DNA of 64,000 nucleotides from Scenedesmus sp. PABB004 (lineage: Eukaryota). The position numbers and the translations under genes were made by a program. The stretch covers positions 4,402,001 to 4,466,000 of the forward strand of contig CM026547.1 of the NCBI GenBank assembly GCA_014905635.1, given 5' to 3'. Under the pieces are notes generated by a model that had not been told where the DNA came from, searched no databases, and was given only the letters and a program-made list of their open reading frames with translations. Below are positions 1-54,812 of this stretch, one piece after another (the first letter of the stretch is position 1; the number at the start of each line of letters is the position of its first letter).

Positions 1-964
1 GCTCGCCCACTGCGACGCTGCGCGCGGGCGCGGGCGCGGGCGCGGCGCCGCGTGCGCGCGGCGGTCGGCGGGGCCGGCGCGCTCGCGCGGCGCGTGCGCG
101 TGCGCGTGCGGCGGTGCGGGGTTTAGGTCCTTCTGAGCCACGGGCATGGCGCCCCTAAACCCCGTACCTGTACACGGTGACCACGAGCATGAAGGTCATC
201 ACAGTCTCCCAGCCAAACGCACGCCACAAGCCCACGCCCTGCCGCGGGCGCGGGCGACGGTGGCGCGCGCGTGGGCGCGGGCGCGGGCGTCGAAGCCGGC
301 AGCGGCGGCGGCGGCGCCGGGGGCTCGCGTGCGTGTGGGCGCGTGTGCGCGGGCGCGGGCGCGTGCACGCACGATGTGGGGCGCGAAGCAGCCGACGTCC
401 GAGGCGCGGGGGATCAGGGCCATCTGTGCGTGGCGCAGAGCGGGCGAGCGTCAGCGGGCCCCTCGGCATCGGCGGGCCCCGGCGGGAGCTCCCGCTCGAG
501 CGCGCGGCGGGAGCGCGCGGCGGCGCGGACGCGCGGGCGCGCGGCGCGGCGCGCACGTGCAGCAGGGAGGCGAGCACCGCGCCGCCGGTCTGCGCGAGGA
601 TGTAGTAGAGCGCGCGCGAGCCGCTGCTGTGCCCCGTCACGGTCGTGGCAAAGCTGACGGCGGGGTTGAGGTGTCCGCCCGACACGTTGGCCGCGACATA
701 GACTGCGCGCGGCGCGGCGGCGCGGCGGCGCGGGCGGCTCGGCAGCGTGCGCGCGCGGGCGGCGCGGGCGGCGCGGCGGCGCGGCGGCGCGGGCAGGGGC
801 GACGCACTGAGCACGGCGAGGCCGAGCCCGTTGGCGGCCGCCGCCGCGCCGCCGGGCGCGGCGCCGCCAATGAAGGCAAACAGGAAGGTGCAGGCCGCCT
901 CGCACGCGACCGCGGCGGCGAGCTTGCTGGAGGTCGAGGCCTCGGTCTGCAGCAGGCCCGGCAT
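1..964 (-). CDS. Aquaporin / major intrinsic protein (MIP), spliced; 3' end runs off the window start
   Basis: ATG at 964 (MPGLLQTEAST..). Exons encode EAACTFLFAFIGG, VYVAANVSGGHLNPAVSFA (MIP signature with first NPA), YYILAQTGGAVLASLL and AFGWETVMTFMLVVTVY. Second NPA exon not seen in the window. Confidence 0.9.
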
Positions 965-1599
965 CGCGGCTGGACTGCGCGAGCGGGCAGGGGGGGGGGG
1001 TGGCGGGCGGGGGTTGGCCGCGGCGCCAGGCTGCGCGCGGCGCGGCGTGCGCGCTGCCCGCTGGCTGCTCGGCGCGCGTGCCACAGGCTGGCAGCTGCCT
1101 GGCCAGGCGCCCCACGGGCGCCGGGGAGCTGCGCGCGCCCCGACGCGCCTGGCAGCAGCAGCAGGAGTGAGTGCGCTCAGCTGGCGCGCGCGGCCGGCGC
1201 GCAGGCAGGCGGCGGGGCGGCGGCAGGGGGCGCGGGAGTCGCGATCGGTGGCGGTGGGATGGCGGCGGGAGGGCGCGGCACGTGGATCAGAGCGGAGGGG
1301 GCTGCCAAAAGTGGCGGTGCGTCAACCTTTACGCACCTCCGCCGGGACCCCAAACCGCCGCCGCACGTGGCCGCCATCGCAGCTGCGACACACGCGCAAA
1401 GGACGTCACGGCGGCCCGTAACCCCGCGCCGCGCGGTCGCCGCCGCTCCCCCCGACAGCGCCGCTGCAGCCCGCCGCGCCGTTCGCGGCCGCCGCCGCCC
1501 TGCGCCCCCGGCTCGCTTCCGCTCCGGCGCGGGACTGGCCGGTCTCCCGCGGCAGCTGCGCGCCCGGCGGCGCCCGCAGCCACCGCAGCCCGCGGCGCG

Positions 1600-3602
1600 A
1601 TGCCGGAGCCGCTCCCGCCGGCGGTGCTCGACGCGGCGGTCGCGGGCGCCACGCCGCGGCAGCGCGCGGCGCTGGCGCTCGTGTGCCGCGAGTGGCGCGC
1701 GGCGGTCCTGCGTGCGGCGCCGCGCGTGGACGCGCCGCTGCGCAGCGACGCCGGCGCCGCGTCCCTGGCCGCCTGGCTGGGCGCGCACGGGGGCGAGCTG
1801 CTGGAGGTCAGCGTCTCGACCGAGGGCCTGTTCGGGCGCCACTGCACCCCAGCGACGCGTCTTTCGATTTTTGCCGCCCTCCACGCCGCCGCCGGCAGTG
1901 CGCCGCCCGCGGTCGCCGCCGGGGCCGGCAGCGACGGCGACGGCGACGGCGACGGCAGCAGCGACGGCGAGGACGAGGCGCCCCCGGGACAGCTGGAGCC
2001 GCAGGCAGGACAGCAGTCGCGGGCGGTGCGGCCGCTGCGGCTGCGGAGCCTGCGGGCGAGCATGCGCATCGGCGCCCCCGAGTGCGCCGCCCTCGCCTCG
2101 CTGCCCGCGCCCGCGCTGGCGAGCCTCGAGCTCACCGGCTCGCGCACGCGGCGGCTCGGCCTCGACGGCGTCCGTGCGCTGGCCGAGGGGCTGTCGCAGC
2201 TCACGTGCCTCAAGGTGCAGCACCTTGGCATCGGCAACGACGCCGCGGCGCTGCTGGCGCAGCGCCTGCCGCGGCTGGTGGACGTCTCCCTCGCGGGCAA
2301 CAACCTCGGCCCCCCGGCCGCCGCCAGCGTTGCACAGCACAGCACCGCGCTGACCGCGCTCGACCTCTCCATCAACAGGTGGGCGGGCGTGCGTGCGGGC
2401 GGGGCCGCCGCAGCCGCAGCCGCCCGCCGCCGCCGCGGGGGGCCGCCGCAGACCGCGCGCGCGCCGCGGCCGCGCGCCGCGCAGGGTCCAGGACGCCGGT
2501 CTGATCAGCCTGTGCGCGCTGGCGCGCCTCGAGGCGCTGGACGTGTCTGGCAACGTAAAGTTTGCGCCCGCAGCACTCGGCGCGCTGCGCGGCCTGACCG
2601 CGCTGCGCCGCCTCGGCGCCGCGAGCGCGGGGCTCTGCAACGCGGGCCTCGCCGCGCTCGCGGCCGCGGCGCCGCGCGGCTGGAGGCGCTCAACGTAGCC
2701 GGCAACCGCCTCAGCAAAGCGGAGCCGCTCGCCGCGCTGCTCCACCTCAGCTCGGTCGTCCTGTCGCGCAACCCGCTGCAGCTGTCGGCCGGCCGCGTGC
2801 TGGCGGGCCTGCCGGAGCTGCGCGAGCTGGTGCTCTTTGAGGCCCTCGCCTCGCCCAAGGGCGTGGCGCCGCTGTCCGCGCTCGCCGCCGTCACGTCGCT
2901 CACGCTCGGCGCCGACCCCGCGCTGCACCCGGAGGGCGAGGCCGGCGCCAAGCTGGCGCTCGCGGGCGCGCGCGGCGCGGGCAAGCTGCTGGCCGGCCTT
3001 GCCGCCGGGGGCCGGCTCGGGTCGCTCGCCGCGCCGTGCAGCGGGCTCGACGACGGCGGCGCCCGCGCGCTCGGCCGCCTCGGCGGCAGCCTGGTGCACC
3101 TCAACCTCGGCTACAACCCCATCAGCGCCGCCGGCCTGCGCGTGCTCCGCGAGCTGCCCGCGCTCGCGCGGCTCGAGCTGCGCAGCCTGCGGCCCGAGCT
3201 GGGCGACGACGGGGCGGCCGCCTCGCGGGCTGCAGCGCGCTCACGCGGCTCACGCTGCTGGACCTGGCCTTCAATGACCTCGGCGGCGAGGGCGTGCGGC
3301 GCCTCGGCGCCGCGGCGTGGGCGCCGAGGCTGCGGCACCTCAACCTGCGCGGCAACGCCCAGGTGGAGCAGGCGGCGGTGCTCGCCGCGGTCGCGGCGGG
3401 GCTGCGCGGCCTGACCTACATCAACCTGGAGGAGATCGGCGACGTCAGCGACCGCGCCGGGCGGGGCGGGCACGCCGCGCTGTGGGCGGCGCTGCCAGAT
3501 CTGTGCGTGCTTGCCGCGCGCAGCTACGGCAGAGGCGGCCCCGGCACCAGCACCGGCGGCGCGGCGTTCCGCAGCGGGCGCGTGATGATCAGCTGCGGCT
3601 GA
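1600..3602 (+). CDS. F-box-like / leucine-rich repeat (RNI-like) protein; two apparent frameshifts in this assembly
   Basis: N-terminus MPEPLPPAVLDAAV..LALVCREWR is F-box-like. Many LxxLxLxxN repeats (LTALDLSIN, LEALDVSGN, LVHLNLGYN, LTLLDLAFN, LRHLNLRGN). Intron 2379-2484 (GT..AG). Frame changes near 2675 and 3221 lack splice sites. Confidence 0.8.
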
Positions 3603-3816
3603 GCGAGGGCGTGGGCTGTGAGTGAGTGGCCACGGGCGGGGCCATGCTGGCCGCTGCGCAGCGTGTTGCGTCAACTGCCCGCCGCGCCTGTGACGCCCTT
3701 CGGAACCTCGCCAACGGCGGCAGGGAGACGCGCTTACAGCCGCCAGCCAGCCACGCAGCCGCGGCCGCGCCCCGGCCGCCGGCGGTTCTGCGCCGGCGGC
3801 CGGCGCCCCCCCCCCC

Positions 3817-6800
3817 CTAGTCGACGCCGGGCGTCGCCGGCCGCGGCGTCCCGCTGCCGCCTGGCGCGCCGCCGCCGCCGCCGCTGCTCCCGCCGCCGCC
3901 GCCGCCGCCGCCCGCGGCCGCGGCGACCTCTTCGAGCAGGTGGCGCACCACGTTCTTGCCCTTAATGAGGTTGATGCGCCGCAGGCGCTCGTTGGCGAGG
4001 TGGCAGTTGTCGCTCGACTGGCCCATCGGGATCATGAGCGCCGGCGCGCCGAGCAGCTTCTCGATCAGGCTCGCGACCGGCATCGTCCCGCCCTCGCGCA
4101 CCGCGAGCGGCGGCACGCCCCACTCGCGCCGCACCGCCGCCTCGGCCATCTGGAAGAGCTGGCTCTGCGGGTCGGCCTCCCACCAGTCGCCGACCGAGTG
4201 GACCTGCGCGCCGGCCGCGCGCGCGCGCGCCGTGGGCCGGCCGCCGCGCCGCGCGCAGCGCACGCGCGCCCTGGTTTGTGGCCGCCGCCGCCGCCGCCGC
4301 GCGCCCGCGCCGCGCGCGCCGCGCCTGCAGCTCCACGTGGTTGGCCGACCAGAGCTGCGCAAACTTGCGGTCGATGTGCTGCTGCAGGCACTCGATGAGC
4401 GCCGTGTGCGCCTGCGCCGGCACAAAGCGCAGGCTCAGCTTGCCGACGGCGACCTTTGGGATGACGCTGAAGCGGGTCGGGCCAAAGCGGTAGCACGACC
4501 TGGCGCCGCCGGCGGCGGCGGCGGCCACGTGAAGTGGGGGGACAGCGGCGTGTGGGTGGCACAGGGCGCGGGGGCAGGGCGCGGCGGCGGGCGCGGTGCG
4601 GTCGGCCCGCACCGGTCGTCGCCGCCGCCGTGCTTGTCGGTGTGGCTGACTGCGAGGTGGCTCAGGTGCGCCGGCAGCGCGGTCGGCCAGAGCCGGCCGT
4701 CGTCGTGGCCCGCGTGCACGCAGCCGCCGTGGTGCGCCGGCGGCGCGTGCGCCGCGAGCGCCGGGCTGTGCGGCGGCGTGCGCGAGCTGTGGCCGCCGCC
4801 GCGGTCGGGGCTGCCCGGCGCGGAGGCCGGCGCGGCCTGCGCCGGCGCGGCCGCAGCGGCGCTGCCGAGGCCACCGGACGTGGCGGTCGTGGTGCGGACG
4901 TCCACGATGCTCAGCGTGGGGCTGCACCAGCGCTTGTTGAGCAGCTCGTAGGTGTCGGGGCCGGTGAGCTGCGGCACGCCGATCGCCTCGCTGCGCGGCG
5001 GCAGCGTGGCGGCGCGCGAGCGTGTGCGCGCGCGAGTGCACGTGCGCGCGGCGACACGCGCCGGCCGCCGCCGCCCACGCGCGCGCGGGCCTTGCCGCCG
5101 CCGGCGCGTGGCGGCGGCCGGCCCGCGGAGCCCCGGCCCCTCCCCCTGCTGCCCACCGCACCGGTAGCTGTCCATGCGGAACTCGTCCGACTGCGCGAGC
5201 CCCGTCCACGCGAGCTCCATGAGCCCCGGGCGCACGCCGTTGTGAAAGCCCGGCACCGCGACGCGCCCGCCCGCGCCCTGCAGGCTGCCCAGCAGCTGCA
5301 CCAGGTCGGCCATCGGCTCGCTGAACACGCCGCCGTCGTTGCCGCTGTGCAGGTCGCGCGACGGCCCCGACACCTGCCGCGCCGCGCAGCGCCGGCGGGC
5401 GGGCGCGGTCGGCGCGCCGCGCCGCGGCGCGCCACGGCGGGCCGGCGGGCCGCACTGGCCGGCGCGGCGCGGCGCCGCCGCCGTGCGGCGGCGCCGGCGG
5501 GGGCTCACCACGAGGCTCGCGGTGACCATGCCGCGCATGCCGTAGGTGAGGCAGGGCACGTTCTCGCCGACCCAGACCGTGTTGGAGATGAGCACGAGGC
5601 TCGCGTCGCCAAACCAGTCGAGGTTGGCCCGCAGGCTCTCCTGGAAGCCGATGCTGCCGTTCTCCTCCTCGCCCTCAAACATAAACGCAAAGTTGAGCGG
5701 CGCCGACGCGCCCGCGACGCGCCAGCAGTCTAGCATCTCCTGCGGCGCCGCGCGTGCAGCGCCGCGCGGCCGGCGCTCTCGCCGCGCTCCCGCCGCCCGC
5801 GCCCGCCCGTGCCCGCGCGCGGTGCCCGCGGCCGCGGGGCCAGCATTGACCGCGGGCCAGGCAGCGTTGACCGCGCGGCGCGCACCTTGACCGCATAGAT
5901 GAAGGCCAGCACGGGGCCCTTGTTGTCGCTCGTGCCGCGGCCGCAGAGGTAGCCGTCGACCGCGCACAGCTCAAACGGGTTGGTGCGCCAGTCCGGCTCC
6001 TCCGCGGGCTGCGCCCGCAGCGCCGCGGCGGCGCCGCGTGAGCGCGGGGCGGGTGCGGCCGGCGAGCCGCGCGGGGCGGGCGCGGCCGGCGCGCTGTGGC
6101 GCGGCGCGAGCGCCGCGCAGCCCAGCCGGCGGGCCGCGCCGCACACCTGCACGTCGTAGTGGCCGTAAAAGGCGACCGTCGGGTGGGCGGGGTTGTTGCC
6201 GAGCCGGCCCAGCACGACGGGGTTCTTCCCCTCAAACGGCTGCGCCATGCGCACCTCGGCGCCGAGCGCCTCGAGCAGGCGTGAGAGGTACTTGGCGCCG
6301 CGCAGGCACTCGTCGCGCAGCACCTGGTGGCGGCGCGGCGACGGCGGGCGAGTCAGAGCGCGGCGCGCGTCAGCCGGGGCGCTGCGGGCGCGCAGCGCCT
6401 GCGCGGCGGGCAGGCAGCGCGGCGGCCGCCGCCGCCGCGGCGCCCGTGCGCGCGCGGCGTGGACCTTGTTGGCGCTGACGGTGCGGATCGCCACAAACTC
6501 GCGCAGCGCCCGCACCAGCTGCTGGTCCTGCGAGCCGCACGCGGGGCACAGCAGCGCCCCGCCGCCCGCGACGGCCGCGCCCTGCGGCGGCGCGCCGCCG
6601 CCGCTGCCGCCGCAGCAGCCGGCGTCGCGCAGGCGCGCGCACCAGGCGCCGCGCTTGCGCTGCCGCTCCGCCTGCAGCACCTCCACGCCGAGCAGGTGGC
6701 CGCTGCCCTCGCTCAGCAGGTGGCCGCTGGGCAGCAGGCCCTGCGCCGCAAGCAGCTGCCCCGCGAGCTGGCTGGCGAGGCACGTCGGCGACATCGGCGG

Positions 6801-9800
6801 CGACGCGAGCAGCGCGCCCGAGCCGCCGCGCACGGCGGCGCCGAGCGCGCCGCACGCGCCGTCGCCGCCCGTGAGCTGGCTCGCGCTCGCGCTGAAGCTC
6901 AGCGCCTGGAAGGGGCTGAAACTCGCCGCGGGCAGGCGGAGCTGGTCGGACCAGGCCAGCACGTCGGCGCAGATCTGCCCGCTGACCAGCTGCTCGGTGA
7001 GGTCGGCGAGGTACACGTCGTCCATGTGCCACAGCCGGATGCTGCTGTCGCTGTACCCGCCGACCACGTGCGCGCTGCTGATCGCGACCACGAGCGCCGC
7101 GGTGGCGGGCGCGGCGTGGCGGCCGCGGCCGTGGCCGTGCGCGCGCCGCGCGCGCCGCTGCTGCTGCGCCTGCTGCTGCTGCTGCTGCTGCTGCGACTGC
7201 TGCTGCTGCTGCTGCTGCGACTGCTGGTGGTGCGCGTGGCCGCAGCCGTGCGCCGCCTGCTCCTGCGGCGCCACCCAGCCGCTGAGGCTCGTGCTCACCG
7301 CGAGGCTGCGGTCCATGCTGTGCAGCGGCACCCCGAACGAGGCGTCCGCTGCCGTGCCGTTGCCCGCATGCTGCTGCTCCAGTGCCCCGACAGGGCCGCC
7401 CGCGAAGCCCACAATTGCAGCGGGCAAGGGCGACGAGCGCCCCGGCGGCGCGGGCGACATGCGCCCTGGCGGCGCGGGCGACGCGCGCCCTGGCGGCGCG
7501 GGCGACGCGCGCCCTGGCGGCGCGGGCGCGGCCGCGGCCGCCGCGCTGGCGGTGCGCCAGTCGGCGCACGGCGCGCAGATGGTGAGGATGCGGAGGCACG
7601 CCCAGTTGCTGCCCCACACGCGCACGGTGCCGTCCGCCGACGCGCTGGCGACGAGCACCGTGCTCGCCGCGCCCGCCGCGGCCGGGCCGAACAGCGCCGG
7701 GCTGGGCGCGCGCGCCGCGGCGGCCGCCGCGTGCAGCTCGCTCGCCGTCAGGCCGCCCGGCAGCCCGCTGCCCGCGCGGCCGAGGCTGGCAGCGCCGGGC
7801 GGCGCCGGCGCGCTGCCCGCGGCGCCGCCGCCGCCGGGCGCGGCGGCCTGGCCGCTCGACTTGCTCAGCCCGAGCGCGTCGAGGTGCACCACGTCGTCCT
7901 TGTGGCCGATCAGCGTGCGGCGGCACATGAAGTCAAGATCGAGGTCCCACACCCTGGCGGCGGGCGGGCAGGCAGGGGCAGGGAGGCGCGGCGCGGTGAA
8001 CGGGGCGCGGCGCGGTGAGTGGGGCGCGCGGCGCGGGCGAGGGAAGGGCGGCGGCGCGCGGCGCGGCGTGGCGCGGGCGCGCGCGCCTGATCGTGTTGTC
8101 GCGCGAGCCGGACAGCAGCATCGTGCCGACCGCGAGCAGCGACAGCACCGAGCCGCGGTGCCCGCGCAGCACGCGCACGAGCGAGAGGTCGCTCGCGCGC
8201 CACACGCGCACCGTGGTGTCGCCGCCTGCGGCGCGCGACGCGGGCGCGGCGCGTGGGCGGGGCTGCGACGCACGCGAGGCGCCGGGGGAGGGGCGCCGGC
8301 GGCGGCGCCCCAGGCCCAGCGGGCGCGCGCGCGCACCCGCGCTGCAGATGTAGGCGCCGCACGCGACCAGGTCGTTCACGGGGCCCACATGGCTCACGGC
8401 AATGTCCGTCTGCGCGTCCGGCGACCGGATCGGCCCGCCCAGGCCGCCCGCCGCGCGGGCTGAGCGGGCCGCCGCCGGCCCGACGCCGACGCCGGCGGCG
8501 GAGCAGCGCGGGCTCAGCGGGCTCAGCGGCCCGCTGCCGCCGGCGGCGCCGGCGCCGGCGGCCGAGGAGCGCCGGCTGAGCGGGCTGAGCGGGGCTCCGC
8601 CCGCCGAGCAGCGGGGGCTCGCGCCGTCGGGCCCGCAGGTGCTCCCGTCTGGGCAGAGGGGCAGGTATTTCTTGACCGTCGTGTCCTGGTGGCCCACGTA
8701 GATGCTGCCGTCGTCGGTCACCTGCCGGCGGCGTGCGCGGGCCGCGCAGGGCGTCGGGCGGGCCGCGGCGCGCGCGCGCGCGCCGCCCCCGCCCGCCCCG
8801 CCCGGCGGCGCACCAGCATCGAGCGGATCGCGCCCGCGTAGAGGCTGGTGCGTATCTTTGCGAGGCAGGCGAAGCTGCGCGTGTCCCACACGCGCACCGC
8901 GCCGCCGGCGCCCGTGAAGAGCAGGCGGCCGCCGAGGAGCTGCAGGTGCGTGACGGGCTTGGGGTGGCCACGGATGACAGCGAGGCAGGCCATGTCGGCG
9001 AGGTCCCACGCGCGCACTGTCGCGTCGGTGCTGCTGCTGTACATGCGCCCGCGCGGCTCGTCCAGCACGAGCGCCAGCACCGCGCGGGTGTGCCCCGTCA
9101 GCAGGTGCTCCTCCTCCATGGTCACGGTCTCGGGCTCTGCGCGCGCGCGGCGCGGGAGCCCGGCGGCGGCGGCGGGGTGGGGGGCGGGGCCGCGGCGCGC
9201 CGGCCGAGGCAGCGCGCGCGGGCGCGACGCGGCGCCCTTCGGGTGCGCCGCGCACCGGCGCCGCCCAAGCTTATGCTGCGCGCGAGGCCCAGCAGGCTGT
9301 CGGCGAGGCCCGGCATGTCGCCGCCCAGCCCCGCGTCGGCAACGGCGCTGTAGAGCCCGAACGGCGACGCCGCGCCCGGCGGCTGCGGCTGCTGCTGCGG
9401 CTGCTGCTGCGGCCCACGCCGCGCGACCCACGCGCGGCTCTTGGTGTGCACGCCCTGTGCAATCGACGCGAGGCACGTGGACACCTGCGGACGTGCGGAG
9501 CGGCGGCAGTGGCGGGGGTGGCGGTCCGCGCTCGGTCAGGGGCCGGCGGCGGCGCCCTGGACCGCGCGCCGCGCAAGCGCGCCGCACCTCCTGCAGGCGC
9601 GCGTCGGGCGCGGCGCCCGCGCTGAGGCTGCTCTGCAGGCTGCTGATGAAGCCGCCCTTCTCCCGCGTGACCACGAGCACGGTGTTCTTGGGCACGCTCA
9701 CCTGCGGCCGCGGCGGCGGCGGCGGCGGGGACGCGGCTGGGCCGCGGCGGCGGCGGCGGGCGCAGGGGCGACGGGTGCGCGGGCGCGGACGGCGGGCGCG

Positions 9801-11594
9801 CGGGCGCGGGCGCGGCGCGCACCCAGTCGGTGGTGGAGCCGGTGATGGGCTCGCTCGCCACGAACGCCACGCTCGCGCCGCGCTCGCGGTAGCTGATGCT
9901 GTAGCTCGCCTCGCGCAGCACGCTGCTGCCGACGAGGTTGTTGGCGCCGCACAGGCTGCAGCCGTCCGCGCCCGCCAGCCCGCCCGCGGCGCCCGCGCCC
10001 GCGGGCCGAGCTCCTCGTCGCTGCTGCCGTCGCTGCTGTCGCCGCGCGCGCCCGACGCGACCGCGGCCGCCGCCGCCGCCGCGGCGACGGCCGCGGGGCA
10101 GCCGCTGTCGTGGCGGTGCGCGGCGGCGCCGGGCTCGGCGCCCTGGCGGTCAAACGAGGCGCCCTCGGCGTAGTACAGCGTCGCTGCGGCCTCGCCCTCG
10201 GGGCGCACGAAGCGCGTGGCGATGAGCGTGGAGCCGTCGCTGACCACAAAGTTCAGCAGGCTGATGTCGGTCACGCCCAGCTGGTCCTGCACGCCGCAGA
10301 TCGTGGAGATGGCCGCCTGCGCCGCACGCAGCGATCCCAGCCCAGCGCGCGGTGGGGAGGGGTGGGGCGGGAGGCGTCGGCGCGCGGGGGCGGCCGGCCG
10401 CGAGCGTGGCGGCGGCGGGGCGCGCGCGCCGGCGCCCCGGCGGCGCGCGCGCCTGCATCGCGGTGACCAGCACGTCGGGCGACTGCTGGTGCGTGAGGTT
10501 GGGCAGGTGGCTCAGGAAGACGGCGAACGAGACGGCGCTGTCGGAGTGGAAGCTCTGGATGCTGTCGTACGCCGCGTCGCTCAGCTGCGGCCGAGGCGCG
10601 GCGCGCGGCGCACGGCGCGGCGGGGCGCGGGCGGCGTGTGCGGCGGGGCGCGGGCGGCGTGGGCGGACGGGCGCGGGCGGCGTGGGCGGCGGGGCGCGGG
10701 CGGCGTGGGCGGAGGCCCCCGCCGCGGCGGCGGCGGCGCGGCGCAGCCCATGCAGCGCGCTGCACCTGCTCCAACAGGCGGCGCTTGATGGCGGAGAAGC
10801 CCCCGACCACGCCGTTGTGCATCCAGATGTAGCGCCCCCACTGGAAGGGGTGGCAGTTCTGCTCGCTCACGGGCATGCCGGGGTAGGCGGCGCGCACGTG
10901 CGCAAAGACGAGCGGGCTGATGATCTTGCAGGACAGGCGCGCGAGGTTCTCGTTGTTCCTGCCAGAGCGCGCGCGCAGCGCGCAGCGCGCAGCACGGCGC
11001 ACCACGGCGCGGCGGGGTCACGCGCGCGACTGCGGCCACCGCCGCGGTGCGCAGCCACAGTGCGGCCACGCTGGCCGCGGTGCGCGGTGCGCGGTGCGCG
11101 GCCGCACCATGCGGGCGTGATGCTTTTGTACATGCACGGCGTGGGGTCGCCCTCGCGCAGCTCGTCGGGCGTGTACCAGCCGATGCCAAAGCCGTCGCCG
11201 TTGAGGTTGCCAAAGCCCAGGTGGTTGGGCAGCGACGGGTCCTGCAGGCGCTCGCGCGCGTCGTACGACTGCTTGATGATGGAGCGGTCGGGCCCTGCGG
11301 GGCCGGGGGGCGGCGGCGGGCAGCCGTCCGAGAGTCGGCGGCGGCCCACAGGCGCCCGGCCCACTGCTGGGGGTGGTGGTGGCGGGGGGGGGGGGGGACG
11401 GCGGCGCGGGCACCGCGCGGCGCGGCGGCAGCGGGCGCACGGCGGCGCCGCTGCTGCCGCGTCCGGCGCCGCTGCCGCCGCGAGCCGGCCGGTGCTGCGC
11501 GGCCTCCACGACTAGTGTTAGTGTCTCGCCACTCACAGAGCACCACGTCCGCTATGAGGCGCGGCGGCCCGATGTAGGCCATGAGCCGGCACAT
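3817..11594 (-). CDS. Fusion protein: class II glutamine amidotransferase (Dug3-like) + WD40 repeats + M20 peptidase-like domain (Dug2-like); multi-exon
   Basis: Starts MCRLMAYIG (Cys2 Ntn nucleophile), then NGDGFGIGWY, FAHVRAA, NCHPF..WMHNG and ASEPIT. WD40 repeats follow (GHTRAV..VRAWD, GHRGSV..SGSRDNTIRVWD). M20 motifs: FYGHYDVQP, GRGTSDNKGP, EGEEENGS, DLHSG, EGGTMP, GQSSDNCHLANE. Stop at 3817. One apparent 1-nt frameshift near 10004. Confidence 0.88.
7428..7523 (-). repeat. Coding tandem repeat, 24 nt x4 (APPGRASP/APPGRMSP/APPGRSSP)
   Basis: Directly visible gggcgac..gcgccc(t/c)ggcggcgc units inside the WD40 region of the fusion gene. Confidence 0.85.
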
Positions 11595-12356
11595 CCTGCT
11601 GTCCTGCTGCTGTTTGCCGCCCCCCGGATCCCCCCCGGGTCCTGCGTCCGGCGTCCAGGCGTGGAGGCGGCGCTACGCAGTCACGCGGACGCGAGCCGAG
11701 CGCCCAGCTGGCACAGTTCACGCCGGGTGGGACGCTAGGGCTGCGGCCGCTGCTCTCGCCCGCCCGCTGCGGCCGCGGCGCTGTGTGGGTGTGGTGCCGG
11801 CAGCGGCGGCGGCGGCGGCTGGGCGGCGGCGGCCGCAGTGGGAGCCGCACCGCGCTGGGGCGCAGCGGGACAGGGCTTTGGGGTTTGGCCCTGTCCCGTG
11901 GGCGCGCACGTACTGCCGACATGCAATTGCTTACCCGCTGCGGTCCTCACCATCACTCGGCGCGCGCGTGGCGTGCGCGCCTTCATTGCGCTGCAAGCCA
12001 CACGAGATCCCTCAGCCCCCTCGCCGCCGGAGACAACATGGACATCGCGTACAATCCGCCCCGCCCGCTGGTCGATGTACACACACAAGCCCTGGCACCT
12101 CTCTCGCGGGTCTGGAATAAGGGGAGGAGCTGCTGCGGGGAATGGGTGGCGCCGCCTTCTTCCCGGCCGTGGCCGAGTGCCAACTGCCGGAGCGCGCCGC
12201 CATTCAGGTACAGGTCCCGGGAGAAACAAAGGGCACTTGCGCGGCAGTCCCACAGATGCAGACGCACGCTGCAACGCGGCCCACAGTTCAAGGCCGCCGG
12301 CGCCAATTTGGCGCACGGGCGGTGTGCGGGCGAGAGCCCCCCCCCCCCCCAAAGCG

Positions 12357-13938
12357 TCAGCCGTCGGCGGGCGCCGGCGCCGAATTGGGCGCCTGCGCGG
12401 GCGCGGCGCCGGCGCGGTGCGGAAGCGACGCCACCACGGCGCCCAGGTCGGCCGCGTCGCCAGCGTCCTGTTCGTCCGTGTCGCTGCCGCCGCTGGTGCT
12501 GGCGCTGCTGCTGCCGCCGCGGATGCTGTCGTCGCCGGCGCCGCCGCCCGCGCCCGCGGCGCCGGGCTTGAGCCCCAGCGCGAGCGCCGCGTGCCCCGGC
12601 ACGAGCAGGCCCCTGCCCGCGCGGATGTCGAGCCCCGCCAGCACCGCGCTGAGGGCATACATGATGAAATTGATAAAGCCCAGCGTGATGCACGCGTCCC
12701 ACGACGCGCACAGCAGCGCCGCGCGGTGCCGCGCCCCCGAGCCCGCGGCGGGCGGCTCGCCCAGCAGGCGCCGCGCGGCGCGGCGCGCCGCCGCCGCCGC
12801 CGCGGCGCGGGCGCCGCCGGCGCGCGCCAGGCGGCGCCCCGGCGCCGCGCCGGCGCCGGCGCCGCGGGCCGCGGACCGCAGGCGCCGCCCCGCAGGGGGC
12901 GCGCCAAAGACGACGCCGCCGTCGCCGCCGCCGCCGCCGCCCGCATCGTCGCGCGCGCGCGGCGCCGCCTGGCTTGGGTCCACGCCGCCGCCGGCCGACG
13001 CGGCCGCCGCGACCGCGGCGTCATACATCGCCTCGATTGCCGACGGCCGCCGCGCCTCGGACGCCGGCGCCGCCAGCTGCTGCGGCGCCGCCGGCTGCTG
13101 CGCCGCGGCCGCCGCCGGCGGCGGCGGCGGCGTTTGCCACTGCGGCGGCGGCGCCGGCCGCTGCGGCGCCGCCGGCTGCTGTGCCGCAGCCGCCGCCGGC
13201 GGCGGCGGCGACGACGGCGGCGCTTCAAAGTAGGCCGACGGCACGGGCCGCGCGATCACGGCGCGGCCGCCGTCGACGCGGCAGGTGCCCTGCATCGCCA
13301 CGAGCGCCGCCGTCACCAGGAAGAGCGCGCTGAGCGTGCCGCAGACCGCCAGGTCGACGATGCCGGGCAGCACCCTGCGGCCGGCGGCGGCGCTCAGCGG
13401 GCGCCGCGCGCGCTGGCCGCGGGCTGCGCCGCCGCGCGCAGCGACGGCCGGCCCCGCCAGCGCGCGCGTCTGCGCTCACTTGGCGATCTTGCGGCTGCAG
13501 CGGCCCGCGGCCGCGAAGAAGAGCGCCGCCGCGAGGCCCAGCGCGCTGGCCGCAATCGCCAGCCGCACGCCCGGCGGCGCCCCCGCGTGCGCCGCCGCCG
13601 CGATGGAGGACGAGGTGGCCAGGCAGATGGCGCAGAATATGGCCTGCGGGGCGGGCGGCGGGCGGCGGGCGTGGGTTGCGGCGGCTGGCGTCGGGCGCCA
13701 CTGCCGTCGCTGCTGCTGCTGCTGCTGCCGGCAGCGTGCGCGTCCGCGCGAGAGGCGCGCCACGCAGCGCCGGGAGGGGCAGGCGGACCGCGCCAGGCCG
13801 CGAGCTGCCCAGGGCGAGAGCTCTCTCACCCTCCGGTGGGCTGCTGCGGCCGCCCGCCCGGCGTCGCCCCAACCCAGGAAGGCTGCCACGCACCTGGGAC
13901 ACGCGCGGCAGGTGCTGCAGGTGCGCCATGGCCATCAT
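12357..13938 (-). CDS. Uncharacterised ~4-TM membrane protein (MARVEL/CASP-like topology) with a Pro/Ala-rich loop
   Basis: Three exons: MMAMAHLQHLPRVSQ | AIFCAICLATSSSI..LAIAASALGLAAALFFAAA | VLPGIVDLAVCGTLSALFLVTAALVA..WDACITLGFINFIMYALSAVLAGLD. Four hydrophobic segments. Start codon uncertain. Confidence 0.6.
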
Positions 13939-14484
13939 TGGAAGGCGCTGCAGCCTTGGCGCTGCGGCCGGGTCGCACACGGCCCCTCACTCCCTGCGCG
14001 CGCGCATGCTGCGCCTCCCCGCTGGTCCCCTCTGACGGGTGTTCTGTACGCCGGCCGGCTCAGTGCCGGCGCTGCGCGGGCCGCTGACCCTAGGAGGCGG
14101 GCGCCCACCGGGCGCGCAGGAGGGAGGGCGCGGGGCGCTCCGCTCGGTGACCGACTGCCTGGACGCGGAACGGCCCTGAGCGCCGCCGAGGGGGCGGCGG
14201 AGGGGCGGCGGCGGCGGCGCCCAGAAGCGCAGGTGACGAGCAGCGCGCGCTAATCGGCCCGCGGCCGCTATCCCTGAACGCAACCCTCGGCCCCACGAGA
14301 CGCCACGCCACGCGCGCGGCAGATGGCAGGTGGCAGCAGCGTGCGCAGGGCGCAGCGCGCTGCGCGCAGCGCGCTGCGCGACCAGTGGGCGCGGGCGGCG
14401 CGCGGTCGCAAGCCGCGCAGCGCTGCGCGACTGGTCTCCGCGGCGGCAGCGGTTGCAAGCCCCGCGCCCGCTGCCGGAGCCCCC

Positions 14485-16653
14485 TCACGCCGCGGCCATG
14501 CAGGCGGGCATGCCTCGGCACTTGACCAGGGCCGCCAGGAAGTAGTAGTCGCCTGAGATAAGCCCCACGTCCACGTGGTTGCCCAGCGGGAAGCCGCCCG
14601 TCGCGTGCTGCGCGGCGGCGGCGGCGCGGGGCGGGCGGCGGCCGGGCGTCCGAGGCACGCGCGCGCCGGGGCGGCCGCCCCGGGGCTGCGCCGCGCGCGC
14701 GATCCCCGGCGCCCGCGCGCGCGGCGCATCGGCGCCGCGCCTTGAGCAGCGCGGGGAACGCGGCGTCGCCCGACGCCGAGAGGTACTTGGGCGCCCCGAG
14801 CGCGCGCAGCGTGTTGGCCGCGGCGCAGGCGTAGCGCGCGGCGCAGCCGGGGCTCGGGTGCGCCTCGGCGAGGTGCAGCAGCCCCAGCGCGGCGACCGCC
14901 GCGGCGCTCGTGTCGCGCGGGCCGTCGAGCTCGGCGTGCCACGGCGCGTCAAAGTCCCACTGGGGCACCCAGCCGTCCAGCGCGCCGCCCTCGTCCTCCC
15001 CGCCCTCCCCGCCCGCCGCCGCGGCGCCCGCGCCGGCGGCGGCGCGCGCGGCGGCGGCCTTTGCGGGCTGCGCGGCGAGTCGTGCCAGGTACGCGTCGGC
15101 GACGCGCACGGCGGTGCCGACAAACTCGGGCGCCGTGGTCGCGTTGAGCGCGCCGCCGAGCATCGCAAAGCCCGCGAGCGCCCACGCCTGCCCGCGCGCC
15201 CACGTGCTCTCGGCGGCGTGGCCCTGCGGCGGCCGCGGCGGCGGCGGCGCGGCGCGGGGTTGTGAGGCGCGGAGCCGCGCGCGAGGGCTCTGCCGACCTC
15301 GGCGCCCGACGCCCGCAGCCCTGAGCCCCAAACCCTGTGGGCGCTGCCCGCGCCTGGTACGAGTACTTGGCGTTCACTCCGCCCGTGCCTGGGTTGTACT
15401 CAACGATGTGGTACGTGCTGCCGTCCGGCCGGACGTGGTGCTTGGCGACCTGCGCCGCACGGCCCGGCGGGCGGGCGGGCGGCCGGCGGTGGGCGGCGGG
15501 CGCGGGCGGCAACGACGCTGGCGCGTGCAGGATGCGGCGGCGGCGGCCGCCGCCGCGCCTGGCGCGCGTGCGCTGCGGCCATCGCGAGCCACGTCTCGTG
15601 CGGCGCCATGTCCATGCGCAGCTCGCAGGACGGCCCCACGTGCGCCGCGCCCCAGACGAGCAGCTGGATATTGATCATAAAGTCTGGCGAGCGCCGGCGG
15701 CGGCGGCGGCAGGGTGTGTGTGTGTCTTGTCAGGTGTCAGGCGCGCCGCCTAGGGCGTCGGTGGCGGCGCGCGGACCGCGGACCGCGGACCGCGGATCGC
15801 GGACCGCGGACCGCAGCACGCGGCAGGGCGGGGGGCTCGCTCCCCGCGCAGCACGTGCACGTGCGCAGCGCCGGGGCGCTGCCGCCGGCGGCGCACCGAT
15901 GATGACAATCTGCTGGTACTCGTTGGTTGAGGCGGGCGTCTTCCAGCCCTCAAACGTGCGCAGGCTCTGCGTCGAGGGCACAAACGCCCACGAGAGCGCC
16001 TCGGCCGCCGCGAGCGCCTGGCGCTTGTGCTCGGACGAGTTGGTCACGGCGTAGGCGTGCGCGAAGCTGGGCTGGTAGATGAACCCTGGCGGCGGCGGCA
16101 GTGAGGCGGGGGCGGCAGTGAGGCGGCAGCGCGCAGGCCGTGCTGTGCGCGCTGCCGCCGCGCGCTGCCAGGGGGCATGCAGCGCTGCCGCACCAAAGTC
16201 GTGCTGCGAACCAAAGTCGCGCTGCCGGTCCGCGAGCGCGGCCTGCCAGCGCTGCGCGGCGTCCGACCACGCGCGCTCGGCGCGGCCTGAGAGCTCGAAC
16301 AGCTGCCACAGCACGCCGGGGAAGAACCCGCTCATCCAGTGGCCCGGAGACACGGTCTCCCAGTCGGGGCTGCCATGCTGGGTGGCGGTGGGGTAGCGGT
16401 CGGGCGGCAGCGCCGCGAGCGCGGCCGCGACCTTGGCGCCGGCCGCGGCCGTCACGCGCTCCAGCAGCGCCTGCATGGGGTCCGCCGGCGCGGGCTGCGG
16501 CCTCGCAGACGCTGCGACGCACGTGGCCGAGCACAGGGCCGCGCAGGGCGGCGCCGCGCTGCACGCGCCGGCCGCCGCGGGCGCCGGCGTGGCAGCCAGC
16601 GCTCCCAGCAGCAGCAGGCATCGGGCCGCCACCGCCAACACGCGCCCAGGCAT
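14485..16653 (-). CDS. Secreted unsaturated glucuronyl hydrolase-like protein, glycoside hydrolase family 88
   Basis: Signal peptide MPGRVLAVAARCLLLLGALAA. GH88 motifs WMSGFFPGVLW, HDFGF, IIDFMIN, VRPDGSTYH, STWARGQAW, VPQWDFDAP, RDTSAAA and GDYYFL across spliced exons. Confidence 0.9.
15770..15811. repeat. Intronic 7-nt tandem repeat (cgcggac) x6
   Basis: Directly visible in a GH88 intron. Confidence 0.85.
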
Positions 16654-53589: not shown

Positions 53590-54812
53590 TCACTCCGCGC
53601 TCGCCGCCTCGGCCTGCTGCGCCCGCAGCACGTCGAGCAGCAGCTGCAGCTTGTACGCCGCGGGTGGCGGCAGCGCGCCGCCGGCCTCGTCGGCCTGGCG
53701 CTGCACCTCAAACGCCACGCCCGCCGCGCGGTGCAGCAGCGTCGCCGCCTCGTCGCGCTCGCCGAGGGCGCGCGCCGCGTCCGAGACCTTGACGAGCGCC
53801 GCCGCGAGCTCCAGCTGCTCGCCCGGCCCCGCGCGCCCGCCGCTGAGCGGGCCGCACCGCGCCTCGCGCAGCGCCAGCGCGCGGCGGTACAGGCCCGCCG
53901 CCGCGGGCAGGGCCTGCTGGCTGTAGCGCAGGTCGCCGAGCTTGTTGAGCGACACGCTCAGCGCGTGCGCCGCCTCGCCGTCGTCGTCCGCAAAGCCCTC
54001 CACCGCCGCCGCGGCCTCGCCGAGCAGCGCCGCCGCGGCGGCGTCGTCGCCGAGGCGCCGGTGGCAGTCGGCGAGGCACCCGCACGCCGCCGCGAGCTGG
54101 CACGCCGCGCCGACGGCGCCCGGCGGCGGCGCCGTCGCGCCCGCGTCGAGCAGCGCCGCGCGGGCGCGCTCGAACCGGTGCAGCGCGGCGTGCGCGTTGC
54201 CGCCGGCGAGGGAGCGCAGGCCGTGGGCCATGAAGAACGAACCGGCGCTGTCGTCCGGCAGCGGGCCCAGGTCGACCTGCGCCGCCGCCACGAGCTGCGG
54301 CGAGCGGCTGTGCGTGTCGAGAAATGTGTCAACCATGCCTGCGCCGCCGCGGCGGCTGGCAGGGTCAGCGGCGCGGGCGCGGCGGCGGCGGCGGCGCGGC
54401 GGCGGCGGGCGCCGGGCCGGGCCGCGTGGTGCGGCGCGGCGCGGCGCGGCGCACCCGTGAGCTCGGCGTTTGGCTGCAGCGCCGCGTGGTCGACGTCCGC
54501 GCCGCACACGGGGCAGTCGCGCGCGCGCGCGATGCAGGCACGGCAGAAGGCGTGCCCGCACGGCGCTGCGCACGCGTCGTGCAGCAGCGCCTTGCACAGC
54601 GGGCAGTGCAGGCTGCTCAGCTGCGGGCCGCGCGAGGAGCCAAAGCCCAGCGGGCACACCGCGCGCGGCGCGGGCTCCGCGCCGGCCTGCGCCGCCTGCT
54701 GCCGCTGCTGCTGGGCCTGCGCCGCGGCGGCGGCGCCCGCAAACGGGCAGCCGCCGCCGTCGGTGCCGCCGCCGGGGGCGGCGGCGGCGCCTGAGAAGGG
54801 GCAGGTGGCCAT
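53590..54812 (-). CDS. NCA1: NCA1 (NO CATALASE ACTIVITY 1)-like RING + TPR-like catalase chaperone
   Basis: N-terminal CPF/CPLGFG motifs; RING CPLCKALL..PCGHAFCRACI..CPVCGAD; helical C-terminus GCLADCHRRLGD..HALSVSLNKLGDLRY..YRRALALR..LAAALVKVSD. One intron. Confidence 0.88.

What the first reader, a model, noticed from the sequence alone, without database searches (positions are those of the whole stretch)
3817..11594. Single-gene Dug3-Dug2 fusion: a candidate one-polypeptide glutathione-degradation (DUG) machine in a green alga
Seen: one minus-strand transcript unit runs from a Cys2 class II amidotransferase (MCRLMAY.., NGDGFG, HVRAA, NCHPF, MHNG) into WD40 repeats and an M20 domain. The GATase/WD40 junction is a phase-compatible GT..AG intron (about 9255 to 9137; ..GGA-g|ag-PETVT), with no stop codon or intergenic space. 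Known: in yeast, Dug3 (GATase II) and Dug2 (WD40 + M20-like) are separate proteins forming the complex that cleaves the gamma-glutamyl bond of glutathione, and this pathway is generally described as fungal. Inference: this is a Rosetta-stone fusion of both subunits and a gamma-glutamyl-transpeptidase-independent route of glutathione turnover or sulfur recycling in algae. I know of no characterisation of it, but did not search.
Basis: partly seen in the sequence, partly recalled or inferred. Interest (0 to 1): 0.88.

Follow-up and report, generated by a model that had tools for sequence, protein, structure and literature searches.

The report
Fused Dug3-Dug2 glutathione-degrading enzyme gene
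This green-alga gene joins in one protein the two subunits that yeast uses to start breaking down glutathione, and the same fusion turns out to be common in algae and some relatives of animals although the pathway is described as fungal.

Summary
One minus-strand gene (11594-3817, 18 exons) encodes, letter for letter, the public 1800-aa model 'Cndp1 [Scenedesmus sp. PABB004]'. It has a Cys2 class II amidotransferase, a conserved linker, WD40 repeats and an M20 domain. The junction intron is exactly 9255-9137.

The fusion is real and not an annotation artefact:
- The linker exon has the same codon-position GC signature as the other exons.
- The only minus-strand TGTAA in 16 kb lies about 80 nt after the stop.
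- 98 of 302 retrieved relatives carry GATase, WD40 and M20 in that order.
- These include complete transcript ORFs from choanoflagellates, an ichthyosporean and a red alga.
- A 1244-aa uninterrupted genomic ORF from a Picochlorum-like contig spans all three domains.

The M20 half belongs with fungal WD40-M20 (Dug2-type) proteins and shares their Asp-to-Asn change at a CNDP metal-ligand position. The GATase half sits with fungal Dug3 on the eukaryotic side of a split from short bacterial-like proteins. It fails the EgtC cut-off.

Function (gamma-glutamyl cleavage of glutathione) is inferred and untested. The fusion is not special to this alga. I found no paper describing it. It probably still needs a separate Cys-Gly dipeptidase.

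The parts
3817..11594 (-). Whole coding region of the fused gene. Exons: 11594-11537, 11294-11108, 10958-10766, 10584-10453, 10316-10057, 9925-9823, 9701-9588, 9484-9256, 9136-8814, 8721-8337, 8225-8087, 7953-6147, 6008-5886, 5739-5509, 5373-5162, 4990-4613, 4466-4325, 4203-3817.
   Evidence: This is the only GT/GC..AG splice solution that reproduces public protein P0004 exactly. GC3 is 0.93-1.00 in every exon and flat in every intron.
9588..11594 (-). Exons 1-7: class II (N-terminal nucleophile) glutamine amidotransferase domain, Dug3-like. Cys2 follows the first in-frame ATG. Protein residues about 1-330.
   Evidence: Sequence read. NCBIfam TIGR03442 8e-48 over residues 1-241, below its cut-off. 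PDB 3mdn 6.5e-27. C2, the R of HVR, the N-G of HNG and the D of SDS are invariant in 30 fused proteins.
9256..9484 (-). Exon 8: conserved linker (STCLASIAQGVHTKSRAW...GLARSISLGGA) between the GATase and WD40 domains.
   Evidence: GC1/2/3 = 0.75/0.61/0.93, a coding signature. The motif EV.RCLEA....R.W aligns in relatives. The matching stretch of the Chloropicon orthologue is modelled as a helix, residues 310-335.
9137..9255 (-).
   Evidence: Splice solution. Flat GC by position, 0.95/0.93/0.87. Sequence is conserved on both sides of the junction in relatives whose ORFs are continuous.
6990..9136 (-). Exons 9-12 (part): WD40 beta-propeller with low-complexity inserts. Boundaries are approximate.
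   Evidence: Pfam WD40 and beta-propeller families at residues 431-731. Alignment to relatives. In-frame tandem repeats.
3817..6530 (-). Exons 12 (part)-18: M20 metallopeptidase-like domain with dimerisation lid, Dug2-type, then stop TAG at 3819-3817. The start is approximate.
   Evidence: Peptidase_M20 82.8 bits. CNDP2 2zof 1.4e-68 and Dug1 4g1p 1.5e-66. Tree and motif table.
3734..3738 (-). TGTAA, the candidate polyadenylation signal about 80 nt after the stop codon.
   Evidence: It is the only TGTAA on the minus strand in window positions 1-16000. Its role as the green-algal poly(A) signal is recalled knowledge, not tested here.
6324..6464 (-). Probable unannotated in-frame intron inside public exon 12: 141 nt, GTCCAC..CACCAG.
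   Evidence: Flat GC, 0.91/0.81/0.91. The encoded Arg/Pro-rich stretch is absent from all aligned relatives.
4467..4499 (-). Probable true 5' extension of exon 17. An acceptor giving an exon start at 4499 adds SCYRFGPTRFS.
   Evidence: With the public donor, the alternative AG gives R-SCYRFGPTRFSVIPK. YRFGPTRFSVIP is conserved in green-algal relatives.

Best explanation
A single nuclear gene encodes one polypeptide with four parts in order:
- an N-terminal Dug3-like class II amidotransferase, whose Cys2 becomes the free N-terminal nucleophile after Met removal;
- a conserved, probably helical linker;
- a WD40 propeller;
- a Dug2-type M20 domain with its dimerisation lid.

Most likely it works like the yeast (Dug2p-Dug3p)2 enzyme with the two subunits tethered. 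It would be a cytosolic homodimer, held by the M20 lid, in which the amidotransferase domain hydrolyses the gamma-glutamyl bond of glutathione and of other gamma-Glu peptides. The products would be glutamate plus Cys-Gly. The WD40/M20 part would act as scaffold and as the site for the Cys-Gly moiety, not as a dipeptidase. A separate Dug1/CNDP-type enzyme would then be needed to split Cys-Gly.

Shown: gene structure, domain order, conservation of catalytic residues, and the reality and wide distribution of the fusion.
Inferred: substrate, dimerisation, cytosolic location (no room for a transit peptide ahead of Cys2) and the role of the M20 domain.
For: Gene and fusion:
- The exon map is exact and identical to the public model.
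- All 18 exons, the linker exon included, have GC3 0.93-1.00, and the introns are flat.
- There is no TGTAA between the two halves. The only minus-strand TGTAA in 16 kb lies about 80 nt after the stop.
- 98 of 302 proteins fetched carry GATase before WD40 before M20, and 52 of those 98 start with MC.
- The linker and the junction are conserved.
- Complete transcript ORFs with the fusion exist in Salpingoeca helianthica, Mylnosiga fluctuans, S. kvevrii, Amoebidium parasiticum and Gracilaria changii.
- In a 42-48% GC metagenome contig related to Picochlorum (76% identity), one uninterrupted 1244-aa ORF holds GATase_4, WD40, M20 and M20_dimer.

Identity of the halves:
- All 40 WD40-linked or related M20 domains split from 5 animal CNDP domains with 100% SH-aLRT.
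- At the CNDP 'ISD' Asp, the 40 have N in 35, S in 4, H in 1 and D in none. CNDP has D in 5 of 5. The window has N and keeps the other ligand and catalytic positions.
- In the GATase tree the short bacterial-like proteins form one side of a 99/98 branch. The fused and fungal Dug3-named proteins lie on the other side.
- The EgtC model scores 163 bits, against 153-179 for fungal Dug3 proteins and a cut-off of 218.65.

Structure: the AlphaFold2 model of the Chloropicon orthologue has pLDDT 83.6 and pTM 0.77, with the linker as a helix.

Yeast mechanism: quoted in passages of PMC9804317 and PMC7617739.
Against: - There are no RNA data for this organism, so splicing of intron 8 is inferred.
- No activity data exist for any fused form.
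- S. cerevisiae Dug2 and Dug3 themselves were not among the sequences retrieved. 'Dug2-type' rests on fungal WD40-M20 proteins and on an Atlas cluster named DUG2 at score 0.88, which is a lead only.
- The GATase tree does not resolve whether the fused clade is sister to fungal Dug3 or to the bacterial-like group unless the root is placed among the latter.
- The M20 outgroup was animal CNDP only. No fungal or algal Dug1 was included.
- The catalytic Glu pair of the M20 domain is kept in green algae, so some peptidase activity is not excluded.
- Some relatives appear unfused: Rhodelphis has separate transcripts (P0194, P0234), and Chlamydomonas sp. UWO 241 has separate models.
Confidence: 0.62

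Rival explanations
1. The protein is fused as described, but its physiological substrate is not glutathione. It could act on another gamma-glutamyl compound, such as gamma-Glu dipeptides, phytochelatins, glutathione conjugates or an EgtC-like thiol intermediate. Alternatively the amidotransferase could pass ammonia to something bound by the M20 domain.
For: The GATase half scores as well on the EgtC model as fungal Dug3 proteins do, 163 against 153-179 bits. Short bacterial-like relatives are equally similar, at about 43% identity. Yeast Dug2p/Dug3p also cleaves gamma-Glu-Met (passages of PMC7617739). No assay exists for any fused form.
Against: All scores are below the EgtC cut-off of 218.65. 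The covalent link to a Dug2-type WD40-M20 partner is the one known context of this amidotransferase type, the yeast complex (passages). The M20 half is vertically related to the fungal WD40-M20 proteins.
Confidence: 0.22
2. The strong form of the reader's idea: the M20 domain is an active Cys-Gly dipeptidase, so one polypeptide takes glutathione all the way to Glu, Cys and Gly.
For: The window's M20 domain keeps His and Asp of GHYD, Asp of SDNKG, both Glu of GEEENGS, the lid His of DLHSG and the last His of CHLANER.
Against: The Asp aligned with the CNDP 'ISD' ligand is Asn here, and is never Asp in 40 of 40 Dug2-type domains. It is Asp in 5 of 5 CNDP domains. The first Glu of the pair is lost in 9 of 40 relatives, so peptidase chemistry is not under uniform constraint. 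In yeast a separate Dug1 does this step (passages).
Confidence: 0.1
3. There are two products from the locus, not a fusion. Either the gene model wrongly joins two neighbouring genes, or intron 8 is retained. Retention would give a Dug3-like ORF stopping at TGA 9124-9122, with a Dug2-like ORF starting at ATG 9119-9117, read from one bicistronic message.
For: Intron 8 is 119 nt, not a multiple of three. Its retention ends the linker frame at 9124-9122, two bases before the in-frame ATG of MEEEH. There are no RNA data for this organism.
Against: The Met is not conserved in close relatives (Raphidocelis AAAEEDHRL, jgi1392 RAVEHVL). Residues on both sides of the junction are conserved within continuous ORFs. 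No TGTAA lies between the halves. Intron 8 has the same GTGCGC..GCAG ends as most of the other introns.
Confidence: 0.05

Closest known systems
Saccharomyces cerevisiae (Dug2p-Dug3p)2 glutathione-degrading amidotransferase complex (Kaur, Ganguli and Bachhawat 2012). I saw it only through citing passages in PMC9804317 and PMC7617739; the paper itself is not held.
   Same: The two protein types and the domain set are the same: a class II GATase with N-terminal Cys, plus WD40 and an M20 domain. The M20 half groups with fungal WD40-M20 proteins. The GATase half lies with fungal proteins named Dug3, opposite the bacterial-like group.
   Different: Here both are one polypeptide joined by a conserved linker of about 100 residues, so stoichiometry is fixed and no assembly step is needed. 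There are large low-complexity inserts. Activity is untested. The yeast sequences themselves were not compared.
Dug1p / CNDP2 / CNDP1 Cys-Gly and carnosine dipeptidases (PDB 4g1p, 2zof, 4ruh, 3dlj)
   Same: These are the best solved-structure matches of the M20 half, at 1.4e-68 to 8.6e-64. The fold elements are shared, as are most ligand positions and the lid His.
   Different: They are stand-alone proteins of about 480 aa without WD40. They keep Asp at the 'ISD' ligand position, where the window has Asn. A 100% SH-aLRT branch separates them.
EgtC (NCBIfam TIGR03442) and short YafJ-like class II amidotransferases (PDB 3mdn)
   Same: Same GATase_4/GATase_6 fold family with an N-terminal Cys. 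They hydrolyse a gamma-glutamyl amide bond without a fused synthase domain.
   Different: The window scores 163 bits against a cut-off of 218.65. The short proteins of about 285 aa form their own clade at 99/98 and have no WD40-M20 partner.
Arabidopsis GGP1/GGP3 gamma-glutamyl peptidases (PMC9804317)
   Same: They do the same cytosolic job, glutathione to Glu plus Cys-Gly, and rescue yeast dug2 and dug3 mutants (passages).
   Different: They are named gamma-glutamyl peptidases in that paper and act without a partner. From recall, they are class I amidotransferase-like enzymes. I made no sequence comparison here. They are an analogue, not a relative shown by my data.

Membership tests
Class II (Ntn) glutamine amidotransferase, GATase_4/GATase_6 (YafJ/Dug3 type) | Cys directly after the initiator Met, as N-terminal nucleophile | tested here: met
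   ATG 11594 is followed by TGC, with no upstream in-frame ATG in the open frame. M1 and C2 are invariant in 30 fused proteins.
Class II (Ntn) glutamine amidotransferase, GATase_4/GATase_6 (YafJ/Dug3 type) | Profile match to the family | tested here: met
   PDB 3mdn 6.5e-27. TIGR03442 8e-48 as a family-level match. Orthologue P0100 scores 52.5 bits on GATase_4 against a cut-off of 23. The window's single exon alone reaches only 23.8 bits against 27 on GATase_6.
Class II (Ntn) glutamine amidotransferase, GATase_4/GATase_6 (YafJ/Dug3 type) | Conserved Arg, Asn-Gly and Asp of the glutaminase site. Their roles are recalled from GlmS/PurF and come from no call. | tested here: met
   HVR, MHNG and SDS are present in the window. 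R99, N125, G126 and D156 (P0100 numbering) are invariant in 30 sequences.
Dug3 orthologue | Groups with fungal Dug3 and not with bacterial EgtC/YafJ-like proteins | tested here: inconclusive
   11 short bacterial-like proteins are one side of a 99/98 branch. Fused proteins (clade 100/99) and fungal proteins (clade 100/100) are on the other side. The order among the three is unresolved and the root is assumed. True actinobacterial EgtC was not in the set.
Dug3 orthologue | Works with a WD40-M20 (Dug2) partner | tested here: met
   It is covalently fused to one. Physical cooperation was not tested.
Dug3 orthologue | Cleaves glutathione to Glu + Cys-Gly | not testable with these tools
   Needs an enzyme assay or yeast complementation.
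Dug2 orthologue | N-terminal WD40 propeller followed by a C-terminal M20 domain with dimerisation lid | tested here: met
   Pfam on P0004 and relatives. The order GAT, WD, M20 holds in 98 of 98 fused proteins.
Dug2 orthologue | M20 domain groups with fungal WD40-M20 proteins and not with CNDP/Dug1 | tested here: met
   A 100% SH-aLRT split separates 40 rows from 5 animal CNDP rows (quick method). P0100's M20 scores 290-297 bits to fungal WD40-M20 proteins, against 225-254 to Dug1/CNDP structures. No fungal or algal Dug1 was in the tree.
Dug2 orthologue | Direct comparison with S. cerevisiae Dug2p | not tested
   The sequence was not among those retrieved. The Atlas cluster 'Di- and tripeptidase DUG2' scored 0.88, a lead only.
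Dug1 / CNDP2 dipeptidase | Full set of metal ligands. Numbering and roles are recalled from CNDP2; positions are taken from the 2zof alignment. | tested here: not met
   The Asp of 'ISD' is Asn in the window. CNDP has D in 5 of 5 and Dug2-type has D in 0 of 40. The other positions are kept.
EgtC (TIGR03442 equivalog) | Score at or above the curated cut-off of 218.65 bits | tested here: not met
   163.0 bits for P0004 and 172.7 for P0100.

The most novel reading that the evidence does not exclude
The tethered Dug3-Dug2 enzyme, not the split fungal pair, is the common eukaryotic form of the DUG glutathione-degrading enzyme. On this reading it arose once. Each half of the fused proteins forms one group apart from the fungal ones. 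It is now the main cytosolic route for turnover of glutathione and gamma-glutamyl peptides, perhaps including phytochelatins, in green and red algae, choanoflagellates and ichthyosporeans. The fungal two-gene system would then be either a later fission or the unfused sister. In this alga, retention of the 119-nt junction intron could additionally switch output from one fused protein to two ORFs separated by only two bases.
Probability: 0.3. Interest if true: 0.65.

Novelty: new variant of a known kind. Interest (0 to 1): 0.5.

Why it matters
The DUG route is treated in the papers I could search as a yeast or fungal speciality. One abstract calls it 'fungus-specific' (PMC9012958, seen in the listing).

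A conserved single-chain version in algae and in unicellular relatives of animals would widen the known distribution of gamma-glutamyl-transpeptidase-independent glutathione turnover. It would independently confirm that Dug2 and Dug3 act as one enzyme. It would also offer a naturally tethered, compact protein (about 1150 aa in Chloropicon and Picochlorum relatives) for the structure of an enzyme that had no entry in my sequence search of the Protein Data Bank.

For algal biology it names a candidate for sulfur and nitrogen recycling from glutathione under starvation.

It is not a new kind of chemistry. The gene models are already public, so the value is moderate.

Tried and rejected
- RNA evidence: no RNA holder was listed for window 3817-11700. 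Read laying could therefore not be used and intron 8 splicing remains inferred.
- Own genome: none is held. I could not look for a separate Dug1, GGT or ChaC gene, or for a second unfused copy.
- Complex prediction: GATase residues 1-335 against M20 residues 685-1155 of the Chloropicon orthologue gave no verdict (score 0.00, controls not run, alignment not used).
- Kaur et al. 2012: not held by DOI or by PMC id. Statements on the yeast complex come from citing passages. My memory of that paper is not used as evidence.
- Bacterial promoter/terminator scan of 9000-9700: nothing found, and it is not suited to a eukaryote.
- Plus-strand ORFs across the locus: six long ORFs had no Pfam family, as expected for GC-driven open frames.
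- One literature search was badly built. With min_terms 2 it returned only general algal papers.
- 'Unfused' green-algal hits rejected as evidence for a split gene: P0131, P0133, P0144, P0124 and P0125 start inside the GATase or the first WD40 blade, so they are truncated models. P0184 (Spirogloea) starts MCRFMAY and is fused, although no GATase Pfam was listed for it.
- Pseudogene: rejected. All exons are open, catalytic residues are conserved and GC3 is coding-like.

Full report
OBSERVATION. The window is about 80% G+C, so long open frames occur in all six frames and 'no stop codon' alone means little. The minus strand between 11594 and 3817 nevertheless carries real coding exons. The quoted amidotransferase motifs (MCRLMAY from ATG 11594, NGDGFG, HVRAA, NCHPF, MHNG) are there. 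Downstream frames hit WD40 and Peptidase_M20.

A search with the 64-aa third exon returned a 1800-aa public protein, P0004, named by its source 'Cndp1 [Scenedesmus sp. PABB004]', at 100% identity. P0004 maps letter for letter to the window. One unique set of 18 exons with GT/GC..AG introns reproduces it. The junction intron is 9255..9137, 119 nt, GTGCGC..GCGCGCAG, phase 1.

IS IT ONE GENE? There are four lines of evidence from the window itself.
- Every exon, including the linker exon 8 (9484-9256), has the strong codon-position signature of this genome, GC3 0.93-1.00 with GC2 0.34-0.70. All 17 introns are flat.
- Most introns share the ends GTGCG./..GCAG, intron 8 included.
- The only TGTAA on the minus strand in the first 16 kb lies at 3738-3734, about 80 nt after the stop codon TAG 3819-3817. 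None lies between the two halves. That TGTAA is the green-algal poly(A) signal is recalled, not tested.
- The first in-frame ATG is followed by Cys, as an N-terminal-nucleophile amidotransferase needs.

No RNA run could be listed, so splicing in this organism is not directly shown.

EVIDENCE FROM RELATIVES. Of the 302 proteins fetched by my three homology searches, 98 carry amidotransferase, WD40 and M20 in that order, and 52 of these begin with Met-Cys. Most of the rest are N-terminally cut calls.

Named fused examples span these groups:
- Chlorophyta: Raphidocelis, Volvox, Pleodorina, Chlamydomonas eustigma, Coccomyxa, Trebouxia, Chlorella, Auxenochlorella, Prototheca, Picochlorum, Bryopsis, Caulerpa, a pedinophyte, Chloropicon, Cymbomonas.
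- Streptophyte algae: Mesostigma, Spirogloea.
- Red algae: Gracilaria, Porphyridium.
- Thecamonas.
- Ichthyosporeans: Creolimax, Amoebidium.
- Three choanoflagellates.

Several of these are complete ORFs of assembled transcripts: Salpingoeca helianthica, Mylnosiga fluctuans, S. kvevrii, Amoebidium and Gracilaria changii.

A stretch after the amidotransferase domain (EV.RCLEA....R.W) and the residues on both sides of the junction (GL.R.IS ... EEH.LTGH) are conserved. The Met of MEEEH is not conserved.

The cleanest test is a metagenome contig of 42-48% G+C, 76% identical to Picochlorum. After one small 5' intron it has a single uninterrupted ORF of 1244 aa containing GATase_4, WD40, Peptidase_M20 and M20_dimer. 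At that base composition such an ORF cannot be a chance open frame, and no splice prediction is involved.

WHAT THE HALVES ARE: THE M20 HALF. Its best solved relatives are CNDP2, yeast Dug1 and CNDP1, at 1.4e-68 to 8.6e-64. No Dug2 or Dug3 structure appears. In a tree, all 40 WD40-linked or related M20 domains separate from five animal CNDP domains with 100% SH-aLRT (quick method; outgroup limited to animal CNDP). These 40 comprise fused proteins, unfused fungal proteins and others. Within them the order roughly follows organismal groups.

A residue-level marker agrees. The Asp aligned with the CNDP2 'ISD' position is Asn in the window (alignment to 2zof; its role as a metal ligand is recalled). 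It is N in 35, S in 4, H in 1 and D in none of the 40, but D in 5 of 5 CNDP domains. The other positions are kept in the window: H and D of GHYD, D of SDNKG, the Glu pair, the lid His and the last His. The protein-language Atlas puts fungal clusters of WD40+M20 proteins, one named 'Di- and tripeptidase DUG2', next after the fused cluster, at 0.88, a lead only.

WHAT THE HALVES ARE: THE AMIDOTRANSFERASE HALF. Its nearest unfused relatives include fungal proteins named 'DUG3', 'related to DUG3' and 'glutamine amidotransferase subunit', at 40-44% identity. Bacterial-like proteins of about 285 aa are equally similar. In the tree the fused sequences form a clade (100/99), the fungal ones a clade (100/100) and the short ones a clade (99/98). 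The order among the three is unresolved. If the root lies among the short bacterial-like proteins, fused and fungal sequences are together.

Against the EgtC model the window scores 163 bits, within the 153-179 range of fungal Dug3 proteins and below the cut-off of 218.65. Cys2, the Arg of HVR, the Asn-Gly of HNG and the Asp of SDS are invariant in 30 fused proteins.

HOW IT PROBABLY WORKS. [quoted passage not shown] The complex also cleaves gamma-Glu-Met (passages in PMC7617739). The fused protein fixes the two subunits at 1:1. The amidotransferase must be N-terminal because its nucleophile is the free amino-terminal Cys, and this explains the invariant domain order in 98 of 98 fused proteins. 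The same constraint leaves no room for a cleavable targeting peptide, which suggests a cytosolic enzyme.

An AlphaFold2 model of the 1155-aa Chloropicon orthologue is confident overall (pLDDT 83.6, pTM 0.77) and makes the conserved linker a long helix. No inter-domain geometry was available to me.

Because the Dug2-type M20 lacks the Asp and, in 9 of 40 relatives, the first Glu of the pair, I read it as scaffold, dimeriser and Cys-Gly-side pocket, not as the dipeptidase. The 'whole pathway in one chain' reading is therefore unlikely but not excluded in green algae, which keep both Glu.

KNOWN OR NEW. The gene model and many fused orthologues are already in public databases under uninformative or misleading names (Cndp1, 'Cys-Gly metallodipeptidase DUG1', 'Glutamine amidotransferase type-2 domain-containing protein').

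In the held library I found no description of a fused or algal DUG enzyme. The searches were:
- Dug2+Dug3+alga (4 papers).
- Dug2+Dug3+fusion (16 papers; the uses I checked were lacZ fusions, cell fusion or reference lists).
- Dug2p+Dug3p+glutamine amidotransferase+WD40 (1 paper).
- 'DUG pathway'+Chlamydomonas (1 paper).
- Dug2+Dug3+glutathione degradation+plants (18 papers).
- Dug3+fused (8 papers).
- Dug3+alga (4 papers).

One abstract calls the pathway 'fungus-specific' (PMC9012958, listing). A Euglena paper notes a transcript contig encoding 'GSH degradosome' orthologues without describing architecture (passage; its supplementary figure was not seen). Subscription papers, including the 2012 mechanistic paper and the 2017 review, were not available to me. 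'Not in print' therefore holds only for this library.

FUSION OR FISSION. Both halves of the fused proteins group apart from the fungal ones, including the holozoan fused forms. This does not follow the species tree. One fusion or one fission suffices, but the trees are unrooted. Transfer between eukaryotes and rate effects in fungi cannot be told apart here.

MODEL DETAILS. The public model probably keeps one in-frame intron (6464-6324, 141 nt, flat GC, absent from relatives). It also uses an acceptor 33 nt too far downstream at exon 17. A start at 4499 restores the conserved SCYRFGPTRFS. Low-complexity inserts in the WD40 region keep the coding GC3 signature and include in-frame tandem repeats.

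VERDICT. The fusion is real with about 0.93 confidence. The function is inferred by orthology of architecture at about 0.6-0.65. It is a fused variant of a known enzyme, widespread but apparently undescribed, and of moderate interest.

Noticed in passing
window 9117-9124 (minus strand): If the 119-nt junction intron were retained, the linker frame would stop at TGA 9124-9122. The in-frame ATG of MEEEH (9119-9117) follows two bases later, a stop-then-restart layout. The Met is not conserved in relatives, so this is probably chance.
   Followed up: partly
window 6324-6464 and 4467-4499 (minus strand): The public gene model seems to keep a 141-nt in-frame intron. It also seems to start exon 17 33 nt too late, losing the conserved SCYRFGPTRFS.
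   Followed up: yes
window 7428-7528, 8455-8592, 7157-7226: In-frame tandem repeats lie inside WD40-region exons: 24 nt x 4.2 (PAPPGRAS units), 63 nt x 2.2, and a GCT/CAG run giving poly-Gln. They are lineage-specific low-complexity inserts in propeller loops.
   Followed up: partly
window 10617-10712: A 23-nt unit is repeated 4.2 times (93% matches) inside intron 3 of the gene.
   Followed up: no
window 1171-3414 (+): The neighbouring plus-strand frame has leucine-rich repeat hits (LRR_8 2.6e-07). It is probably a separate LRR protein gene converging on the 3' end of the fused gene.
   Followed up: no
window 53825-53907 (-): ARAGORN calls a tRNA-Ala (anticodon GGC).
   Followed up: no
proteins P0059 and P0130 (Chlamydomonas sp. 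UWO 241); P0194 and P0234 (Rhodelphis marinus): In these two organisms the amidotransferase and the WD40-M20 parts are separate gene models or transcripts. In UWO 241 the amidotransferase model also carries an Exo_endo_phos Pfam domain. These are possible secondary fissions or assembly artefacts.
   Followed up: no
L001 306-4284: A Picochlorum-like metagenome contig carries the fused gene with only one small 5' intron, after MCRLMAYVGPEILVADVVLYPSRSIIK. It is a compact orthologue suited to expression.
   Followed up: yes
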